Source: a virus (taxonomy: Duplodnaviria > Heunggongvirae > Uroviricota > Caudoviricetes). From it: DNA of 18,236 nucleotides. Both the position numbers and the translations under genes were made by a program. The notes beneath the pieces are model-generated. The model had not been told where the DNA came from, did no database searches, and saw only the letters and a list, made by a program, of their open reading frames with translations. Positions 1,553 through 14,515 of this stretch are shown one piece after another. The stretch's first letter is position 1. Each line of letters opens with the position of its first letter. The DNA lies in the IMG/VR virus record IMGVR_UViG_2695420732_000030, positions 1-18,236 of that record, one strand, 5' to 3'.

Positions 1553-1741
1553 TCACGAGGACTGAAGTTTCTCGCAATTAAAATTTATCAGTTTTACTTT
1601 CTGCTCTCTGGAAACGCCTGCTTCTTTTTTACCTGAGAGCATTTTTTCGCATTCTGATTTCGTTAGTTTAGATTTTGAATATCTTGTCCAGTTAGTAGGA
1701 GTGCCACCTTCCTTTTCAATAGTGGCGGTAATTTTATACAT
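1553..1741 (-). CDS. ydaC: Small phage protein, YdaC-like (DUF1187-like), 62 aa from the SD-supported start
   Basis: Track ORF 1553..1813; the internal ATG at 1741 has a perfect GGAGG SD at 5-nt spacing and avoids an 80-nt overlap with ralR. The upstream ATG at 1813 has no SD. Position between xis and ralR as in Rac. Confidence 0.55.
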   Translation of the reverse strand: MYKITATIEKEGGTPTNWTRYSKSKLTKSECEKMLSGKKEAGVSREQKVKLINFNCEKLQSS

Positions 1742-1984: not shown

Positions 1985-2794
1985 TTATTCCTCTGAATTA
2001 TCGATTACACTGTATTCCCCGGTTAATACAGAGGAATCTGCAGGATCGATTGTCAGTGGTTCCTTTTCATCCATTGATACTGCACGCTGGATCTCAATTG
2101 ATACGGGCAGATATTTGAACAGGCGACGAATAGCCGTTTTCTTTGCCATTTCTTCCCAGTGAGTTACCCACGGCCCGTTATTACCAGCTTTACTCAGGCT
2201 GCGCACCAGCTCAATCTGTTTGCGCGTCATAACTTCAAACTGAGTACCTCCGTCTTTCAGTCTTGCGACAGCATAGACGTGGGTAACCGGGGCATCTTCG
2301 TTTTCTCCCGGGCGGTGTATTAACTTTTCATCAAGGCCAAATTCGAAGCTAAACTCGTCACCTTCACGGACAACACGGGCTGACAGGCTGGCGATTTGAC
2401 CAGAACGGCGAGCCAGATCAATCATGCCGCGATAGCCAATGATTAGCTGAACGTTCTTTTTACCGCTCTTTTCGTTTTTATTACCAAAAGGCAGTAAATA
2501 TGCATGACCGAGGGCGCTACCTGGCTCAAGTCCGAGCTGTGAACACTGTACGATCGCACTGACAAAACTCATAGTGTCACAGTTTCCTAACGCCGGAACT
2601 TTACTAATTTCTGTGGTGGCGATACGGATCATACGTTCAGCCGTCATATGGCGTGGAAGAGCTGCTGCCAGTTGCTCTTTCATTGCCGGGCTGTTAATCA
2701 CGCACAGCACATCCTTATCGTTAACTGCTGCTGGTGCACGGTTTCCCTGAGTTTTTTGCAGATCGGCTTTTGCGATAGGTGGTTGCTTAATCAT
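1985..2794 (-). CDS. recT: RecT single-strand annealing recombinase, 269 aa
   Basis: Protein from [24 protein letters not shown]... matches RecT as recalled; ATG at 2794 has an AAGGAG SD 8 nt upstream; the start overlaps the recE stop by 8 nt (ATGATTAA), as known for recE-recT. Confidence 0.92.
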
Positions 2795-5459
2795 TTGCAT
2801 ACTCCTTAGCCCAGCGGGGCAGTGATAACGTCTTAATAGCTGGCCATTCATCGGTATTTAGGCAGTCAGCCAGGGTCCGCAGATTGCGGTGATATTCCTG
2901 CTGGCCTGCCAGTTTTGCTTCTTCGCCCATCATGAAAATCTCAACCGGATAACGTCCGCATTCAACAGTTGTGCTGGCAACCAGAAAAACGAAAGTTGGC
3001 TGCACGCCAAACTGTGCTTCATAACCGTCACTGTAGAATGCATCCTGAACGTGATAGCGGTAGTCGTAATAAGCCGTTTTGAATCGTTGAATATCCGCTG
3101 TGGTTTTCACGTCCATGATCCAGTGAAATTCAGGAATAATTTTGTCCGGACGGCACCGACACAAAATTCCTGTTTCCGGATCTTCCCAGTAAATTGATGA
3201 TTCAGCGTGTCCGGCGCTTTCAACAAGCCATTGCCCCAGCGGCAAAGCCATAACGCTTTGATACATGAGTTCAATTTTCCGGCCTTCTTCCGCAGTGATA
3301 ACCGTTTTTCCTGTGCTTGCGCATTCCATCAGAAACGCTTTCTCTTCTTCTTTTCCGGCGGTTGTACGGCGGTTAAATTCAGGTGCTACGATAAAGCGGT
3401 TACTGAATTCTTCCGGTTCAAGTACCCGGCAGTGGAAAGCGGTTCCTAAATCGAGCGTTTTTGTCTTTGTAGTGTCCACGGGGGCATTTTTACGCCACAA
3501 ATACAGTGCCGGAGTATCAGCAATGTCATCGAGCTGAGACTTACTGACACCGGGACCCGCGTGGTAATTCTCATTCGAAATTCCGTAATAAATACCTGGC
3601 TCTATGTCTTCTACGATTACGGGATCTGCGACTTCGCCAGTTTCATCACTGCAATCGCGATGCGGATCGCTGCCAGCATTCTCATTGTGCGGATGTTCAG
3701 CGCCTTCCATTTCCTCCGGATCTTTTTCCTTAGCTTCAACCTGATTCTCTTCACCGAATGTTTCCTGGTATGTTGCGTCGCCCATCACCGCGCCACAATC
3801 AGGGCAGTTGCCGCCACCGCTCTGACCGCAGGCGGTGCAGACTTTTTCCGGTTCCTGTTGCGCTACTGGTTCGGATTGTTTCGTTTCTGGCTCGTTTTGT
3901 AACGCATTTGGGCTGTTTTGTTCCGCTTTTTGGTCGTTCCGTTCCGATTCATGCTGGTTCTGGTTCACAGAATCGCGAGTCTGGATCCCCTTGACCCATT
4001 TCGGATCATTAGGGTCGCTAATCCCCTCAACAAATTCACCACGCGATACAGCAAGTAACTTATCGGCGTCAGGCTGGCTGATATTGGCTGCCTGCATAAT
4101 TTTGTTTACTTCGTCAGCGGTGACTTTTACTTGGTTAGCGGAACTCACCTGCGACTGAGCATCCAGCGACTGCGCGTTCTGGCCATGTTCAGTTGTATCC
4201 GGTTCCATTGTTTCAGTTGTTGCCTGTTCACCTGCCATTGCGTCAGATGGTTGTGGTTTTTCTTCTTCTGTTTCACGCTCAGTAACCACCTCGCGGTTAA
4301 TTTCTTCCAGGATATCTTTTTCCGGTGTATGCCGGGCAGCTGTGAGAGTTTCCTTGCTGGGGTTCTCGTGATCAGTTTCCGTCAAATAGGCGTTGATATA
4401 CCCCTGAAGGCGTCCCGGGTAGTGATAAAATTCAGGGTGTGCGCTTCGGATAAGTGCAAAAATAGCGGCGCGGGAATAGTCCAGAATACCCGGGGTTGCA
4501 CGAAGTGCTGCGGACCATTCTTTGAACGGACTTTCTTTGTTCAGGACTACTTCTTTTGCGCGACGATAAACGCTGCCCGGAATTTCATAAATATTAAAAT
4601 CCATCGGAAGTGTGGCTGCTGCAATCTCCACATCCAGTGTGTCGAGGGTGTGTACTAAATTCGGATTGCGATCGGTTTTGTTCCCACCGCCAGCATTAGC
4701 ACCGGAAGCCGTGCGGGTGATGCGTGAAACACGATTTCCTTTCATCCACTCTTTTGTCAGCAGACCCCGATAAGTGTAGTCAGCGTCCAGGTATGCTTCG
4801 AAAAAAGCAGTTATTAGTCCCAGGTCTGAATTACCAGGATTAGGGAAAACTTTGTCAGTGTCACGAACCAGTTTGTGGAGGTCGCGAATCTCCAGCGAGT
4901 CGAGCAGACTGGTTTTATGCGAAATAGCCAGGGCAGTAACAGCCGGTAGTTCTTCAGCCCGTGCAATGTGTAATGCCTGGAGTTCGTCGCGTGAAACGTG
5001 CGTTACTGGTTTTTCGCTGCCGTGTTGAGCAAGCCAACGAATGGGCAGTTCCTGACCGGAGACAGGCAGAAGCATGCTCTCCTCAATCTCAGTCATGTCT
5101 TCGCCGTTGATGTTGGTATTGTCAGTGCTGGCTGGTTTATCCTGAACAGAGGGTGACGGGGCGATAAATACCATTGTGATGCCATCCTCCCCGCCTTTTT
5201 CGTATCGGTTGCAGAATTCCGTATCAAATACGCCTTCTGGTGGGAGGTCATCAACAACGGGCAAATTGACGCGAACAGGTTTTTTAAAGTCATCTTCATC
5301 GTAGCCAGCATCGTCAATCGCAACAGCACCACGGGAGATGGCAATGGATAATTTTTTCGCTTCAGCCCAGTAAAAACCGCCTTTAATACCGAGACGTTTT
5401 CTTACTTTGTCATTTTTGGCTTCGTAATACAGTGGGAAAACTTGTTTATCGGTGCTCAT
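2787..5459 (-). CDS. recE: Exodeoxyribonuclease VIII (RecE), 890 aa variant
   Basis: C-terminal ~280 aa ([24 protein letters not shown]...[12 protein letters not shown]...) resemble the RecE PD-(D/E)XK nuclease domain; N-terminal and central acidic linker as recalled for RecE but divergent and longer than the K-12 form (recalled as 866 aa); ATG at 5459. Confidence 0.9.
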
Positions 5460-5559: not shown

Positions 5560-5835
5560 TCAGATTTCGCCTTTTTGTTCCATCTCAATCAGAGTTGCCA
5601 TAATCCTGTCTTTTTTCTCTGCTGGAATATTCTTTATGATGTGCACCATGCACATTTTTTTTACACCTTCGTGAAGTGTTTTAACGTTGCCTGATGGACC
5701 GTCGATATCAACCACGGTGAATGGGGTTTCTTTATTTTCTGTTTTAATCACGTAGCCAATGAGTTTTCCTTCCAGGATAACTTCGTGAACAACGTCATCA
5801 GTAGTAACAACAGTGGCTTCATAACTGGTAATCAT
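5560..5835 (-). CDS. racC: RacC-like protein, 91 aa
   Basis: Translation from MITSYEATVVTTDD... matches RacC as recalled; track ORF trimmed to ATG at 5835 with an AAGGAG SD at 6-nt spacing. Confidence 0.8.
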   Translation of the reverse strand: MITSYEATVVTTDDVVHEVILEGKLIGYVIKTENKETPFTVVDIDGPSGNVKTLHEGVKKMCMVHIIKNIPAEKKDRIMATLIEMEQKGEI

Positions 5836-5909
5836 GTTTTTCTCCTTAATTAAGGTTGAGCGAATCCCTGCCATTGCTGGCATAAATTCAGTTTCGGATA
5901 GTCAGTTAA

Positions 5910-6080
5910 TTAAAGTTCGTGTGCCATCTGGTCTTTTTCGGCACAGATTTCACTACAATATTTTTTCATTTCCGTCGTTGGTATAACTCCACGCATGAAA
6001 TGAAGTGGTCTTGTAATGATTTTGCTTTCTTCAATTTCTTTATTGCAAAGGTGATAAGCACATTTTATTTTCTTAGTCAT
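5910..6080 (-). CDS. ydaE: YdaE-like small Cys-rich (zinc-binding) protein, 56 aa; not in the ORF track
   Basis: Hand translation of the minus strand from ATG 6080: [56 protein letters not shown]. The ATG overlaps the kilR stop (TAATG). Position between racC and kilR as in Rac. Confidence 0.65.
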   Translation of the reverse strand: MTKKIKCAYHLCNKEIEESKIITRPLHFMRGVIPTTEMKKYCSEICAEKDQMAHEL

Positions 6081-6301
6081 TACCATGACTCCGCCTTTAC
6101 AGGTAAACCATCACGACCGAGGAAGACTCTAATCATGCAGTCAGAAATGCATGTTTTTGTAGTCAGGCTACGAATATAAAGTTTTCGCTTTTTAATATTG
6201 TTTGCCGAGGCGATATATGTCCGACCTTCATGAAGAACATAATCGCCAGGAGTCACACACTGACGTGGTATTTCATCAGTTCCGAAGTGATGAGCAATCA
6301 T
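6080..6301 (-). CDS. kilR: KilR, FtsZ-targeting cell-division inhibitor of Rac, 73 aa
   Basis: Translation [46 protein letters not shown]... matches KilR as recalled; ATG at 6301 has a GGAG SD 7 nt upstream; track ORF trimmed by 4 codons. Confidence 0.8.
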
Positions 6302-6465
6302 AATTATCTCCATTTTTACAAATGAATTTTGTCGATGCGGTGCCTGGTGCCTCCAGGTGACGTTAACCAGTTAACAATTAACGCCGGATAATCCACCCAT
6401 AACACTGATGCTTTTAACTGTGCCGCGTGCGCTTAGCCGCATTCACCGCATCACAAAATTCACTT

Positions 6466-6512
6466 TAAAAAGGCGGACATCAGTCGAACTTCAAGAAAAA
6501 ACTGATGCCGCC
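6466..6512 (-). terminator. Candidate intrinsic terminator on the minus strand (12-bp interrupted stem, then UUUUUAAAG)
   Basis: GGCGGaCATCAGT (6472-6484) pairs with ACTGATGCCGCC (6501-6512) around a 16-nt loop; on the minus strand the T-run corresponds to A 6467-6471. Lies ~180 nt downstream of the minus ORF ending at 6692 and upstream of kilR. Confidence 0.35.
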
Positions 6513-6691
6513 AAGACTACACACAGCAGTGTTGTTAGTCACAACCGGAGGCGCACTCCCACCATTTAAATTTAACAGACAAGACCGACTCTTTATGGAT
6601 ATCGGAAATGCGCCTTCGTGTTGTGCCCGGTTTTATTTCACCACCTCCGGGCTTCGGTGGTTTTCGTTATTCCCCAACAGCGAAAATTAGG

Positions 6692-7042
6692 TTAATCTGA
6701 ATATCCCCCAACAGATGGAAGGATTTTTCTATGCTCGAAAATCAGACCTTGAAGGTTGCCTGCCCTGATTGCGGCAGTGAGATGCTCAAGCGGCCCGATG
6801 ATTTTGACTTTGACACTAATTTCGTTGGCGTTAGTTGTGCCGAATGTGGTCGAGAAATCACTAAGGACGATGTTATTAAGCAAGGAAAAAATGTAGTTCA
6901 GAAACAAGTCAATGACATGCTCCGGAACACCCTCAAAGGCAGCGGGTGGAAGTTTAAATAACCCATGTATCGCACTAAAGTGTTCCGTTACTTCTGTAGC
7001 GTCTATGGTAAGTTTGATAGGCGCTATTTTCACTCCCGTCAT
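6692..7042 (-). CDS. Hypothetical protein, 116 aa, at the position where K-12 Rac carries sieB; fully antisense-overlaps the plus ORF 6731..6961
   Basis: ATG at 7042 with GAGGTGA SD 5-6 nt upstream; near-consensus sigma70 promoter ~70 nt upstream on the same strand (7119-7147); candidate terminator downstream (6466-6512). No recognisable family. Confidence 0.42.
   Translation of the reverse strand: MTGVKIAPIKLTIDATEVTEHFSAIHGLFKLPPAAFEGVPEHVIDLFLNYIFSLLNNIVLSDFSTTFGTTNANEISVKVKIIGPLEHLTAAIRAGNLQGLIFEHRKILPSVGGYSD
6731..6961 (+). CDS. Hypothetical zinc-ribbon protein, 76 aa (CPDCG-x22-CAECG)
   Basis: ATG at 6731 with AAGGA SD; two CxxC pairs 22 residues apart; about 70% purine at codon position 1. 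Lies entirely inside the antisense ORF 6692..7042, so one of the two may be a shadow frame. Confidence 0.45.
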   Translation: MLENQTLKVACPDCGSEMLKRPDDFDFDTNFVGVSCAECGREITKDDVIKQGKNVVQKQVNDMLRNTLKGSGWKFK

Positions 7043-7118
7043 ACATCACCTCAAATCTTTTCCCTTAACGCCGGGTGGCGGAACTAAAACCTACAGCGCC
7101 GTGCTGTTCTCGATAGAA

Positions 7119-7147
7119 ATATTAGTGACACGTATATTTTAAGTCAA
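7119..7147 (-). promoter_or_regulatory. Near-consensus sigma70 promoter on the minus strand: -35 TTGACT, 17-bp spacer, -10 TAATAT (PL-like position)
   Basis: Reverse complement of 7119-7147 reads TTGACT-N17-TAATAT; sits between the repressor-gene terminator and the 116-aa minus ORF, pointing toward the kilR-recET-int operon. Confidence 0.5.
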
Positions 7148-7243
7148 CAGCAAGGCGTATTATATTTTTGATTTTGTAACTATGTAAATGTTTTTCAAGG
7201 GAAAAATATTAGTTATACAGCTGATTTGCAGAAGTTATGGCAC

Positions 7244-7277
7244 AAAAAAAACCGACTAAGACGTCGGTTTTTTTTTG
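7244..7277. terminator. Bidirectional intrinsic terminator (A8-CCGAC-loop-GTCGG-T9)
   Basis: AAAAAAAACCGACtaagacGTCGGTTTTTTTTT; 25 nt downstream of the repressor stop (7303) on the minus strand and downstream of the 6731..6961 plus ORF. Confidence 0.7.
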
Positions 7278-7302
7278 TTGTGGGTGGGGTAGTGAGCGGT
7301 GG

Positions 7303-7764
7303 CTACTGGTTACGTTTCTTTAGTGCCAGCATGTTCTCGAAGGCTTCCTCGTAGAGCTTGTTTAGTCCACGTAGCTGGTTAAGGAGTTTGGCTTTTTCTG
7401 ACGCAGGTAGAATCTCGAAGAGGTTAAGTAACTCTGCCTGTTCTTCATTGACCAGCCTCCATCCTTTGCCTGAAAAGCTATCATCATAAGTATCTGATGA
7501 TCTTACATAATTCATTAAGTCTTTAAGGTCTTCTCGAATGTCCTCTGGTTTTACCTTTAACAGAGCCGCAAATTTTAGCGCAGCGTCGGTATTTACCGGT
7601 ATCTTGCCGTTCAGATACTGGCTAACGGTGCCTTGAGATTCGAATCCCAACAACTCAGCCGCCAACTCTTGAGTCAGCTTCAGCTCTTTTTTTCTTGCAT
7701 TCCATGCGGCTTTTAAATTCTTGCTCGCTTCTGGAGTTGCAATCACTTCGCGTGTTTTTTTCAT
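7303..7764 (-). CDS. Prophage repressor, HTH XRE/cI-type (RacR-like), 153 aa, no S24 peptidase domain
   Basis: HTH motif LTQELAAELLGFESQGTVSQYLNGK; divergently transcribed from a Cro-like gene; the acidic/helical C-terminal half lacks the Ser-Lys autocleavage module. Confidence 0.8.
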   Translation of the reverse strand: MKKTREVIATPEASKNLKAAWNARKKELKLTQELAAELLGFESQGTVSQYLNGKIPVNTDAALKFAALLKVKPEDIREDLKDLMNYVRSSDTYDDSFSGKGWRLVNEEQAELLNLFEILPASEKAKLLNQLRGLNKLYEEAFENMLALKKRNQ

Positions 7765-7800
7765 ACATAGAGTTTATTTGTTTTACCAATATTATCAAAG

Positions 7801-7841
7801 ATAGTCTGACTATTGATCTTTAAAATTAGTAGGGCTAATAT
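7801..7841 (+). promoter_or_regulatory. PR-like promoter (-35 TTGATC 7813-7818, 17-bp spacer, -10 TAATAT 7836-7841) overlapped by the perfect palindrome ATAGTCTGACTAT (7801-7813), a candidate operator
   Basis: Read directly from the sequence in the 107-bp divergent intergenic region between the repressor and Cro-like genes. Confidence 0.5.
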
Positions 7842-7871
7842 TTGCTCGAGGCATAACGTAGAAGGTTGGCT

Positions 7872-14184: not shown

Positions 14185-14359
14185 TGCTGCGGGTGCTTGA
14201 GGCTATCTGTCTCGGGCATGAACACCAACGGCAGATAGAGAAAAGCCCCAGTTAACATTACGCGTCCGGCAAGACGCTTAACATTAATCTGAGGCCATAT
14301 CTATGCTCTACATACGTAGGTTAGCCTCTTACGTGCCGAAAGGCAAGGAGAAGCAGGCT

Positions 14360-14515
14360 ATGAAGCAGCAAAAGGCGATGCTAATCGCCCTGATCGTCAT
14401 CTGTTTAACCGTCATTGTGACGGCACTGGTAACGAGGAAAGACCTCTGCGAGGTACGAATCCGAACCGGCCAGACGGAGGTCACTGTCTTCACAGCTTAC
14501 GAACCTGAGGAGTAA
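14360..14515 (+). CDS. Hok/Gef-family type I toxin, 51 aa
   Basis: MKQQKAMLIALIVICLTVIVTALVTRKDLCEVRIRTGQTEVTVFTAYEPEE shows the Hok signature (TM helix, RKxLCE, AYE); AAGGAG SD; track ORF 14303..14515 trimmed to ATG 14360. Confidence 0.8.
   Translation: MKQQKAMLIALIVICLTVIVTALVTRKDLCEVRIRTGQTEVTVFTAYEPEE

What the first reader, a model, noticed from the sequence alone, without database searches (positions are those of the whole stretch)
6302..7300. Variable locus replacing sieB: two mutually antisense ORFs with their own promoter and terminators
Where K-12 Rac carries sieB, this window has a 76-aa zinc-ribbon ORF (plus, 6731..6961) lying wholly inside a 116-aa ORF on the opposite strand (6692..7042). 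Each has a good Shine-Dalgarno. The minus ORF additionally has a near-consensus sigma70 promoter (7119-7147) and a candidate terminator (6466-6512); the plus ORF is followed by the bidirectional terminator at 7244-7277. Neither product resembles a family I recognise. The sieB/N position in lambdoid prophages is a known hotspot for superinfection-exclusion and defence cargo, so this could be a small exclusion or toxin/antisense module, or one real gene regulated by antisense transcription.
Basis: partly seen in the sequence, partly recalled or inferred. Interest (0 to 1): 0.75.

Follow-up and report, generated by a model that had tools for sequence, protein, structure and literature searches.

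The report
Zinc-ribbon gene nested in antisense ORF
A small prophage cargo gene for a zinc-binding protein lies entirely inside a second reading frame on the opposite DNA strand, and comparison of many phages shows that evolution keeps both frames readable, which makes this a rare, well-supported candidate for DNA that is read on both strands.

Summary
The cassette (about 6684-7054) replaces sieB-ydaF-ydaG of K-12 Rac.

The plus ORF (6731-6961) belongs to a named but uncharacterised family, NCBIfam NF047912 (ECs_2282), at 81.6 bits against a cutoff of 37. It is under clear purifying selection (omega 0.15-0.28).

The minus ORF (6692-7042) is not a chance shadow ORF.
- In 16 deep lineages it keeps a strong SD and ATG and stays open across the whole zinc-ribbon gene.
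- Only 1 of 118 Leu/Ser codons creates an antisense stop, against 11 of 52 in the 5 lineages that lack the minus start (Fisher 9e-6).
- The pair moves as a unit between pL operons, tail modules and baseplate modules. The long ORF always points the same way as the host operon.
- Its amino-acid sequence is only weakly constrained (omega 0.8-0.95), although a few sites show skewed codon choice.

- the promoter is the repressor-controlled early-left promoter;
- the "terminator" at 6466-6512 is the 3' hairpin of the KilS/DicF-like sRNA;
- the terminator at 7244-7275 ends the repressor gene.

The zinc-ribbon gene has its own covarying terminator hairpin at 6996-7027.

Best reading: a reverse-oriented moron bridged by a translated antisense ORF. 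The function of both products is unknown.

The parts
6684..7054 (.). Variable cassette that replaces sieB-ydaF-ydaG of K-12 Rac. The left edge falls at 6662-6688, depending on which allele is compared.
   Evidence: blastn against K-12 (L018) and three other alleles (L002-L004): homology ends at 6661-6687 and resumes at 7055. A 99.4-99.7% identical cassette occurs in only 2 of 5426 complete E. coli genomes.
6731..6961 (+). Zinc-ribbon gene of 76 aa with motifs CPDCGS...CAECGR. Member of the NCBIfam ECs_2282 family.
   Evidence: NF047912 scores 81.6 bits against a cutoff of 37. PGAP annotates it in the near-identical locus. Differences per site by codon position are 0.217/0.202/0.525, and pN/pS is 0.28. 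Omega conditional on the other frame is 0.15-0.21.
6717..6723 (+). Shine-Dalgarno sequence GGAAGGA of the zinc-ribbon gene.
   Evidence: Read from the sequence. An AGGA-type SD is conserved in the homologues.
6692..7042 (-). Long antisense ORF of 116 aa that covers the whole zinc-ribbon gene in exact antisense register. It is the first ORF of the early-left transcript in this cassette.
   Evidence: - The ORF is listed.
- A homologous open ORF with SD and ATG is present in 16 of 21 plus-protein clusters.
- Antisense-stop codons are 1/118 against 11/52 in lineages without the minus start.
- The minus family has 63 clusters, all called 'hypothetical'.
- It is annotated as HK639_45 in phage HK639.
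- It matches phrog_29546 at E 3e-6.
- Omega is 0.81-0.95.
- Site-specific codon bias is shown.
7046..7051 (-). Shine-Dalgarno sequence GAGGTG of the long ORF. It lies inside the cassette.
   Evidence: Strong SDs of the GAGGTG, GAGGGT or GAGAGGTG type precede the ATG in every lineage that has the long ORF.
6996..7027 (+). Hairpin followed by a U-rich tail (7028-7035), 35 nt after the plus stop codon. Inferred to be the intrinsic terminator of the zinc-ribbon gene. It is embedded in codons 6-16 of the long ORF.
   Evidence: Fold energy is -14.9 kcal/mol, and the region's z-score is -3.0. The arms show compensatory changes across lineages. The plus-sense RNA is more stable than the minus-sense RNA in 17 of 20 lineages (Wilcoxon 0.006). 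The simple terminator scan did not flag it.
6625..6714 (+). Conserved structured element 5' of the zinc-ribbon gene.
- A5' arm GCCCGG (6625-6630) pairs with CCGGGC (6647-6652).
- That partner lies in the loop of hairpin B, ACCACC (6640-6645) / GGTGGT (6656-6661).
- Direct repeats follow: TTCCCCAACAG (6670-6680) and TCCCCCAACAG (6704-6714).
   Evidence: Both helices covary in 20 lineages, and the same element precedes sieB in K-12 Rac. There is no Rfam match and no strand preference in stability.
6466..6562 (-). Homologue of K-12 sRNA KilS in the kilR 5' region, with a DicF-like 3' terminator hairpin. It lies in the flank, not in the cassette.
   Evidence: The K-12 annotation lists ncRNA kilS. 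Rfam DicF scores 41.4 bits, below the gathering score of 48. KilS was verified by northern blot in PMC8175672.
7119..7188 (-). Two tandem leftward sigma-70-like promoters, 7188->7159 (11/12) and 7147->7119 (9/12). Inferred to be the pL-type early-left promoters. They lie in the flank.
   Evidence: Promoter scan. The flank is 97-99% identical in prophages with other cassettes. Putative operators AAATATTAGTnAYAC lie at 7117-7131 and 7204-7218, with weaker copies at 7780-7794 and 7829-7843 in the repressor-cro intergenic region.
7244..7275 (.). Bidirectional intrinsic terminator just downstream of the repressor gene (7303-7764, minus strand). It lies in the flank.
   Evidence: 13-nt perfect inverted repeat flanked by A8 and T8. 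It sits in the conserved right flank.
6080..6313 (-). kilR (FtsZ inhibitor), the gene downstream of the cassette on the early-left strand.
   Evidence: NF008465 at E 1.8e-47.

Best explanation
The cassette is a mobile, reverse-oriented moron.

Shown:
- A small zinc-ribbon gene of the ECs_2282 family carries its own 5' structured element and its own terminator hairpin.
- It is inserted against the direction of a phage lytic operon. Here that operon is the repressor-controlled early-left operon leading into KilS, kilR and recET.
- On the operon strand, a ribosome-binding site and ATG sit just beyond the moron's terminator.
- From there an ORF runs, in exact antisense register, across the whole moron to about the zinc-ribbon start codon.
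- Selection keeps this long frame open and keeps its start signals.
- The amino-acid sequence of the long ORF is only weakly constrained.

Inferred:
- The long ORF is translated as the first cistron of the lytic transcript. Its main role is in cis. Ribosomes bridge about 350 nt of otherwise untranslated antisense RNA, protecting the operon from Rho/NusG-dependent polarity, RNA decay and pairing with the moron's mRNA.
- Convergent transcription and full complementarity make expression mutually exclusive. The zinc-ribbon protein is made in the prophage state. On induction the long ORF is made and the zinc-ribbon mRNA is silenced.
- The zinc-ribbon protein is a lysogen-expressed cargo. Its position suggests exclusion, defence or a regulatory role, but its molecular target is unknown.
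For: The plus gene is real:
- NF047912 membership.
- Third-position-biased substitution and pN/pS 0.28.
- Omega 0.15-0.21, with no bootstrap replicate reaching 1.

The long ORF is maintained by selection:
- SD and ATG are conserved in all 16 clusters that have it.
- Antisense-stop codons are 1/118 against 11/52 (Fisher 9e-6). Frames are open in 15/16 lineages against 1/5 (Fisher 0.004).
- Distinct codon types per column: Leu 1/22 and Ser 2/23, against a background of 18-20%.
- Starting from divergent long-ORF proteins (Brenneria, Erwinia, Klebsiella, Rahnella), the nested CPxCG...CxxCGR ORF is always present, in the same register.

The pair is a mobile unit whose long ORF points the same way as the host operon:
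- pL operons.
- After the tape-measure gene in tail modules.
- Inside a baseplate module.

The zinc-ribbon gene has its own terminator:
- A covarying hairpin that is more stable in the plus sense.

Sequence constraint on the long ORF is weak:
- Omega 0.81-0.95.
- A viable 34-aa truncated form occurs in Yersinia.
- The AlphaFold model has low confidence (pLDDT 63) and gives no fold match.

Polarity is a real issue at this locus:
- kilR in K-12 Rac is silenced through NusG (PMC5793797, which cites Cardinale 2008 for Rho/NusG silencing of foreign DNA).
- The K-12 sieB allele has no bridging ORF.
Against: - No transcript or translation data exist for either strand.
- No convincing promoter was found for the zinc-ribbon gene.
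- The long ORF is also kept in phages that have N or put antitermination, where Rho polarity should matter less (HK639, L013, L016, L185).
- Several plus-synonymous sites show codon choices that fix the minus amino acid. Examples: Pro CCC in 12/13 gives Gly, Cys TGC in 15/16 gives Ala, and Ile is never ATT. The Fisher combined p is 1.5e-7, assuming independent lineages. This points to some protein-level function of the long ORF, not translation alone.
- The conserved N-terminal 'peptide motif' of the long ORF is largely the imprint of the terminator hairpin arms, so it is not independent evidence of coding.
Confidence: 0.45

Rival explanations
1. Both ORFs encode functional proteins that form a two-state pair written on the same DNA. 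The zinc-ribbon protein acts in the prophage, for example in exclusion or defence. The long-ORF protein, made only from the lytic transcript, neutralises or replaces it so that the phage escapes its own cargo. This would be analogous in logic to P22 SieB/Esc/sas.
For: - Same structural evidence as the best explanation.
- Codon-choice bias at plus-synonymous sites fixes Gly, Ala-Ile-Arg, Asp and Ile in the minus frame.
- Omega across all 24 lineages is 0.81, with 3% of bootstrap replicates reaching 1.
- Asp14 of the long ORF is invariant, at the cost of a mismatch in the minus-sense hairpin.
- The ORF is retained in phages with N or put antitermination.
- The module sits at the sieB position and shares its 5' element with sieB.
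- The plus protein gives a weak hit to the PADLOC candidate PDC-M14A (E 9.7e-7).
Against: - Omega in the ECs_2282-proper clade is 0.95 (0.67-1.41).
- A 34-aa truncated long ORF is found on 23 Yersinia contigs.
- The structure model has low confidence and no fold or family match.
- The codon-bias test assumes independent lineages.
- There is no evidence of any interaction between the two products.
Confidence: 0.27
2. The minus ORF is an untranslated shadow ORF. The exact antisense register of any gene is poor in stop codons, and only the zinc-ribbon gene is real.
For: - In this window alone, the chance of an open antisense frame is about 0.19.
- The minus frame has pN/pS of about 1.2-1.3 in the overlap.
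- PGAP annotates only the plus gene.
- That this register is stop-poor is general knowledge: the antisense stops correspond to sense TTA, CTA and TCA.
Against: - Antisense-stop codons are 1/118 against 11/52 in relatives that lack the minus start.
- A strong SD and ATG are conserved at the same place in 16 clusters, down to about 40% plus-protein identity.
- The ORF always ends within about 40 nt of the plus start codon.
Confidence: 0.07
3. One reading: a self-contained exclusion or toxin/antisense (type I TA-like) module in which each ORF has its own promoter and terminator.
For: - The locus is a cargo hotspot, and the plus gene is fully complementary to a transcript from the other strand.
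- Type I TA loci are present elsewhere in the window: RalA at 1557-1735 and a sok-like element at 14191-14365.
Against: - The promoter and both 'terminators' lie in flanks shared with prophages that carry other cassettes.
- In other phages the long ORF starts 8-40 nt after the preceding operon gene, which leaves no room for its own promoter.
- Neither product is a short hydrophobic toxin.
- No TA or toxin family is hit.
Confidence: 0.05
4. The long minus ORF is the only real gene (as annotated in phage HK639), and the zinc-ribbon ORF is its shadow.
For: Several deposited phage genomes annotate only the long ORF.
Against: - Substitutions concentrate at plus third positions, with plus omega 0.15-0.21.
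- The CxxC pairs are invariant, while the facing minus residues toggle between Ala, Thr and Ser.
- The plus gene exists without the long ORF in 5 lineages.
- The plus gene has its own SD and terminator hairpin.
Confidence: 0.02

Closest known systems
Morons of lambdoid phages: autonomous promoter-gene-terminator units inserted between operon genes and expressed from the prophage (for example lambda sieB and rexAB, and HK97 gp15 after the tape-measure gene). This comparison rests on my own knowledge.
   Same: - It is present or absent between otherwise homologous prophages.
- It sits at known cargo positions: the sieB slot, after the tape-measure gene, and in a baseplate module.
- It has its own terminator hairpin.
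- It is oriented independently of the host operon.
   Different: - The opposite strand of the whole moron is itself an ORF with conserved start signals that selection keeps open. I know of no described moron with this feature.
- No promoter was identified.
Antisense overlapping gene pairs reported in bacteria: the EHEC pairs nog1/citC, laoB/ECs5115, ano/ECs2385 and pop/ompA, and Pseudomonas olg1/olg2 (PMC9927249, PMC5960689, PMC8850804, bioRxiv 10.1101/2020.11.18.388249).
   Same: Two ORFs lie on opposite strands with a long overlap. One frame dominates the substitution pattern.
   Different: - Here the short, strongly constrained gene is nested inside the longer, weakly constrained one.
- The pair is conserved down to about 40% (plus) and 23-30% (minus) protein identity.
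- It is mobile between phage modules.
- The evidence here is comparative only. Those published cases rest on ribosome profiling or phenotypes.
sieB of Rac, lambda and P22, including the P22 sieB/esc/sas antisense switch. The P22 part rests on my own knowledge (Ranade and Poteete 1993).
   Same: - Same genomic slot and same orientation as Rac sieB.
- The same conserved 5' structured element precedes sieB in K-12 and the zinc-ribbon gene here.
- An antisense relationship is part of the regulatory logic.
   Different: - No sequence similarity to SieB.
- The product is a soluble-looking zinc ribbon, not a membrane protein.
- The K-12 sieB allele has no long antisense ORF.
HK639_45, the first annotated gene after pL and the putL antiterminator RNA of phage HK639 (NC_016158).
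   Same: It is homologous to the long ORF and occupies the same position as first cistron of the early-left transcript. The nested zinc-ribbon ORF is present there too.
   Different: In HK639 only the long ORF is annotated, and the upstream leader is a put RNA. In this window the leader belongs to a Rac-type immunity region.

Membership tests
NCBIfam NF047912 (ECs_2282 family putative zinc-binding protein) | HMM score above the curated cutoff. | tested here: met
   81.6 bits against a cutoff of 37, E 2.8e-23, covering the full profile 2-60/60.
NCBIfam NF047912 (ECs_2282 family putative zinc-binding protein) | Two CxxC pairs (CPxCG ... CxxCGR) in a stand-alone protein of about 60-95 aa. | tested here: met
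   C11, C14, C36 and C39 are invariant in the alignments. Nearly all of the 107 representatives of 50%-identity clusters are 58-96 aa.
NCBIfam NF047912 (ECs_2282 family putative zinc-binding protein) | Zinc binding. | not testable with these tools
   The model shows a zinc-ribbon-like N-terminal part followed by a C-terminal helix, at pLDDT 67. Only generic zinc-ribbon fold hits were found, all with E > 0.7.
Phage moron | Variable presence between otherwise homologous phages, at inter-gene positions of operons. | tested here: met
Phage moron | Own transcription terminator. | tested here: inconclusive
   A covarying hairpin with a U-rich tail, more stable in the plus sense. The U tract is short, the simple scan does not flag it, and termination itself was not tested.
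Phage moron | Own promoter, active in the lysogen. | tested here: inconclusive
   No good sigma-70 match lies upstream of the plus gene. A conserved structured element and direct repeats are there instead. Expression cannot be tested with these tools.
Antisense overlapping protein-coding gene pair | Both ORFs have start signals and are conserved as open frames beyond chance. | tested here: met
   (1/118 against 11/52 antisense-stop codons; Fisher 9e-6).
Antisense overlapping protein-coding gene pair | Purifying selection on the amino-acid sequence in both frames. | tested here: inconclusive
   Plus-frame omega is 0.15-0.21. Minus-frame omega is 0.95 (0.67-1.41) in the close clade and 0.81 (0.63-1.00) overall. 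Site-specific codon bias gives a combined p of 1.5e-7, assuming independent lineages.
Antisense overlapping protein-coding gene pair | Both products are translated. | not testable with these tools
   No expression data are available. No paper mentions ECs2282.
SieB superinfection exclusion protein | Sequence homology to SieB. | tested here: not met
   Neither ORF has a Pfam or NCBIfam SieB hit. Only the position and the 5' element are shared.
Type I toxin-antitoxin system | A short hydrophobic toxin plus an antisense RNA antitoxin with its own promoter. | tested here: not met
   No toxin family is hit. Neither product is a short hydrophobic peptide. The minus strand has no cassette-internal promoter.
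   DicF scores 41.4 bits, below the gathering score of 48. The stretch aligns almost base for base with the annotated K-12 kilS region.
PADLOC defence candidate PDC-M14A | Full-length match to the model, with the partner gene present. | tested here: not met
   Partial match only: profile positions 18-89 of 152, 27 bits, E 9.7e-7. No partner gene was looked for. No paper mentions PDC-M14.

The most novel reading that the evidence does not exclude
One stretch of phage DNA encodes two working proteins on opposite strands that form a life-cycle switch. The zinc-ribbon protein acts in the prophage, for example to exclude or defend against other phages. The antisense-encoded protein, made only when the lytic operon fires, counteracts or replaces it. 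RNA complementarity enforces that only one of the two is made at a time. The module has spread as a unit through early and late operons of temperate phages of Enterobacterales.
Probability: 0.25. Interest if true: 0.9.

Novelty: new variant of a known kind. Interest (0 to 1): 0.72.

Why it matters
Long antisense protein-coding overlaps in bacteria and phages are disputed. Most candidates are young, lineage-specific and supported only by expression data.

This pair offers strong comparative evidence instead:
- the antisense frame has been kept open, with conserved start signals;
- this holds across deep divergence and across moves between unrelated phage operons;
- related lineages that lack the antisense start serve as an internal control.

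If the long ORF works in cis, it shows how phages can carry reverse-oriented cargo inside operons without breaking them. If both products work, it is a compact two-state switch encoded on both strands.

Either way there are practical consequences:
- frame-specific synonymous mutations make the question directly testable;
- annotation pipelines currently report one strand or the other, never both.

Tried and rejected
- Family searches. Pfam, NCBIfam, PHROGs and PADLOC give no informative hit for the long ORF, only phrog_29546 of unknown function.
- PDB sequence search found nothing below E 0.01.
- Exhaustive HMM search with the plus family found a small family of stand-alone small proteins and no informative domain fusions.
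- YdaG or YdaF homology of the long ORF's N terminus: none.
- The conserved 'IAPIxLxIDAT' peptide motif as independent evidence of coding: rejected, because it is the imprint of the two arms of the terminator hairpin.
- A promoter for the plus gene: no convincing sigma-70 match.
- The 5' element as a nutL or put site: not supported. In phages that have N or putL, those lie upstream of the long ORF, not here.
- Literature on ECs2282, HK639 gp45 and PDC-M14: nothing relevant.
- Strand preference of the 5' element: none detected.
Full report
**Setting.** The window is a Rac-like prophage. On the minus strand it carries recE (2787-5459), kilR (6080-6313; NF008465, E 1.8e-47) and an HTH repressor (7303-7764). 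On the plus strand it carries ydaS- and ydaT-like genes from 7866. By blastn, window 5801-6683 and 7055-7087 match K-12 Rac on either side of sieB-ydaF-ydaG. Other E. coli prophages share both flanks at 90-99% identity but carry different inserts. This exact cassette occurs in only 2 of 5426 complete E. coli genomes. Recognisable relatives occur in 33.

**The observation.** Both ORFs, both Shine-Dalgarno sequences and the bidirectional terminator at 7244-7275 are present. The two ORFs lie in exact antisense codon register. In that register, stops on the other strand arise only from sense TTA, CTA or TCA codons. With 5 Leu and 3 Ser in the plus gene, the chance of an open antisense frame in one sequence is about 0.19. 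The window alone therefore proves nothing.

**The plus ORF is a real gene of a named, uncharacterised family.**
- It scores 81.6 bits against NCBIfam NF047912, 'ECs_2282 family putative zinc-binding protein' (cutoff 37).
- PGAP annotates it in near-identical loci.
- Homologues at 57-99% identity occur in Cronobacter, Hafnia, Klebsiella, Citrobacter, Yersinia and others. CPDCG...CxxCGR is invariant.
- In 12 unique homologous DNAs, differences per site by codon position are 0.217/0.202/0.525, and pN/pS is 0.28.
- An overlapping-gene estimate made in the style of OLGenie gives omega 0.15-0.21 for this frame, with no bootstrap replicate reaching 1.
- An exhaustive HMM search finds only 107 representatives of 50%-identity clusters. 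Almost all are stand-alone proteins of 58-96 aa.
- Structure prediction gives a zinc-ribbon-like N-terminal part and a C-terminal helix at modest confidence. Fold hits are generic.

**The minus ORF is not a chance shadow ORF.** Loci were gathered through the plus protein from genomes, viral contigs, deposited phages and metagenomes.
- They fall into 21 plus-protein clusters.
- In 16 clusters there is a strong SD (GAGGTG, GAGGGT or GAGAGGTG type) and an ATG about 80-100 nt beyond the plus stop. From there the antisense frame runs open across the whole zinc-ribbon gene and ends within about 40 nt of its start codon.
- The only exception is a Yersinia variant that stops after 34 codons.
- The other 5 clusters lack that start, and 4 of them have interior antisense stops.
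- In 16 deep lineages (median nucleotide identity 0.57), 1 of 118 Leu/Ser codons is TTA, CTA or TCA. In the 5 lineages without the start, the figure is 11 of 52, which equals the local background of about 19% (Fisher 9e-6; by lineage 15/16 against 1/5, Fisher 0.004).
- Counting each codon type once per alignment column, to damp relatedness, gives Leu 1/22 and Ser 2/23. Both Ser cases lie at plus codons 2 and 4.
- A profile of the long-ORF proteins finds 63 clusters of 'hypothetical proteins' of 93-116 aa across Enterobacterales.
- Divergent members from Brenneria, Erwinia, Klebsiella and Rahnella were traced back to DNA. Each contains the nested CPxCG...CxxC(G/S)R ORF on the other strand, in the same register, with its own SD.
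- Two of the 16 deep lineages came from this minus-based sampling. Removing them does not change the result.

**The pair is mobile, and the long ORF points the same way as the host operon.**
- pL operons: after cI, after N, or after the putL antiterminator RNA of phage HK639, where the long ORF is annotated as HK639_45 and the zinc-ribbon ORF is not annotated.
- Directly after the tape-measure gene in siphovirus tail modules.
- Inside a myovirus baseplate module.
- In several of these the long ORF begins 8-40 nt after the preceding gene, so it must be read from the operon transcript.

**How far the long ORF's sequence is constrained.**
- In the overlap, the most variable minus-frame position is position 1, which faces plus position 3. 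The naive pN/pS is 1.2-1.3.
- Conditional on the plus frame, omega is 0.95 (0.67-1.41) in the close clade and 0.81 (0.63-1.00) over 24 lineages. Any constraint is weak.
- Some plus-synonymous sites are nevertheless strikingly uniform while others vary freely. Pro22 (column 25 of the alignment) is CCC in 12 of 13 lineages (background 12%), giving Gly. The second Cys is TGC in 15 of 16, giving Ala. Ile43 (column 46) is ATC 13, ATA 3 and ATT 0, giving Asp or Tyr. The conservative combined p is 1.5e-7, assuming independent lineages. Lineages without the long ORF do not show these preferences.
- The 27 codons outside the overlap have a coding-like pattern (0.404/0.308/0.589; pN/pS 0.60). This region is not independent evidence, however.
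- Its conserved 'IAPIxLxIDAT' motif is the imprint of the two arms of a hairpin at 6996-7027, which is followed by a U-rich tail.
- That hairpin shows compensatory changes across lineages. It is more stable as plus-sense RNA in 17 of 20 lineages (Wilcoxon 0.006), because G-U pairs in the plus sense become C-A mismatches in the minus sense.
- I read the hairpin as the zinc-ribbon gene's own terminator. This is an inference. The U tract is short, and the simple scan does not flag it.
- The AlphaFold model of the long ORF has low confidence, and no fold or family is recognised.

- Both leftward promoter candidates (7188->7159, 11/12; 7147->7119, 9/12) lie in the right flank, which prophages with other cassettes share.
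- A 15-mer, AAATATTAGTnAYAC, occurs at 7117-7131 and 7204-7218. Weaker copies lie at 7780-7794 and 7829-7843, between the repressor and cro-like genes. This is the layout expected of OL/OR operators.
- These promoters are therefore the pL-type promoters of the whole early-left operon.
- The 'terminator' at 6466-6512 is the 3' hairpin of the homologue of K-12 sRNA KilS (annotated b4833; verified by northern blot in PMC8175672). It gives a sub-threshold DicF hit.
- The terminator at 7244-7275 follows the repressor gene.

**Mechanism.**
- Shown: the architecture and its conservation.
- Inferred: the zinc-ribbon gene is a reverse-oriented moron, and the long ORF is the first cistron of the lytic transcript. 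Translating it bridges the antisense stretch.
- That polarity matters at this locus follows from K-12. There kilR is kept silent through NusG (PMC5793797, which cites Cardinale 2008 for Rho/NusG silencing of foreign DNA), and the sieB allele has no long antisense ORF.
- Full complementarity of the two mRNAs implies mutually exclusive expression.
- The long ORF persists in phages with N or put antitermination, and a few minus-frame residues appear fixed. Both facts keep open the more novel reading that the long-ORF protein itself has a function, possibly directed at the zinc-ribbon protein.
- The molecular role of the zinc-ribbon protein is unknown. The only hints are its position, the 5' element it shares with sieB, and a weak partial PADLOC hit (PDC-M14A, E 9.7e-7).

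**Novelty.**
- The plus family is already named. No paper in the library mentions ECs2282.
- The papers on antisense overlapping genes that I located do not appear to cover this pair. I checked only one of them in detail.
- A moron whose entire opposite strand is a conserved, start-equipped ORF appears to be undescribed.

**Verdict.** This is a real and unusual feature. It is a new variant of known kinds (moron; antisense overlapping genes). The comparative support is strong, but there is no expression evidence yet.

Noticed in passing
window 6625-6714 (also L018 2062-2171 and 18 other loci): A structured element lies just upstream of the zinc-ribbon gene. A 5-6 nt upstream segment pairs with the loop of a GC-rich hairpin, which gives interleaved or alternative helices. 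Both helices covary, with six pair types each. Two direct repeats follow (TTCCCCAACAG here, TTCCACAGTCAA in other lineages). The same element precedes sieB in K-12 Rac. There is no Rfam family and no clear strand preference, and its function is unknown.
   Followed up: partly
window 6466-6562 (-) and 6294-6484 (-): The kilR leader carries a homologue of sRNA KilS with a DicF-like 3' hairpin (DicF 41.4 bits, gathering score 48). It also gives a sub-threshold STnc100-like match (41.1 bits, gathering score 47). The layout of repressor, promoter, small ORFs, DicF-like RNA and division inhibitor parallels the dicB operon of Qin; that parallel is from my own knowledge.
   Followed up: partly
window 7117-7131, 7204-7218, 7780-7794, 7829-7843: The repeated 15-mer AAATATTAGTnAYAC lies next to the leftward promoters and in the repressor-cro intergenic region. 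These are likely OL/OR operators of this immunity type. The count is only marginally above chance (6 matches; 9 of 200 shuffles reach that number).
   Followed up: partly
window 7093-7107 (-): A small hairpin, ACAGC-ACGGC-GCUGU, followed by AGGUUUUAGUU lies in the leader between the leftward promoters and the long ORF, inside the conserved flank. It could be an attenuator of the early-left transcript.
   Followed up: no
window 1557-1735, 14191-14365, 16549-16797, 16910-17118, 17119-17178: Rfam matches above the gathering score elsewhere in the window: RalA antitoxin sRNA, a sok-like antitoxin RNA, three tRNAs, STnc100 and AgvB (anti-GcvB sRNA).
   Followed up: no
L013 4199-4303 (Yersinia enterocolitica prophage): This is the one lineage where the long ORF is cut to 34 codons by a CTA codon in the zinc-ribbon gene. 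It is seen on 23 contigs, so it is not an assembly error. It is a natural test case for whether the overlapped part is dispensable.
   Followed up: partly
L008 2188-2652, L101 2507-2971, L102 2483-2851: In some lineages the long ORF has an N-terminal extension of 30-60 residues (123-155 aa in total). These extensions have no similarity to each other.
   Followed up: no
L003 1896-2396 (E. coli C7 prophage, same slot): Another allele of the cassette carries a different convergent pair, a 77-aa plus gene and a 101-aa minus gene, which overlap by only 39 nt. Reverse-oriented cargo at this slot recurs, but full nesting does not.
   Followed up: no
L178, L179, L182 (environmental metagenome contigs): Distant 93-94-aa relatives of the zinc-ribbon protein have a C-terminal extension and no antisense partner. 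Their 11, 17 and 12 Leu/Ser codons include 0, 5 and 2 antisense-stop codons respectively. They may represent the ancestral, non-overlapped state.
   Followed up: partly
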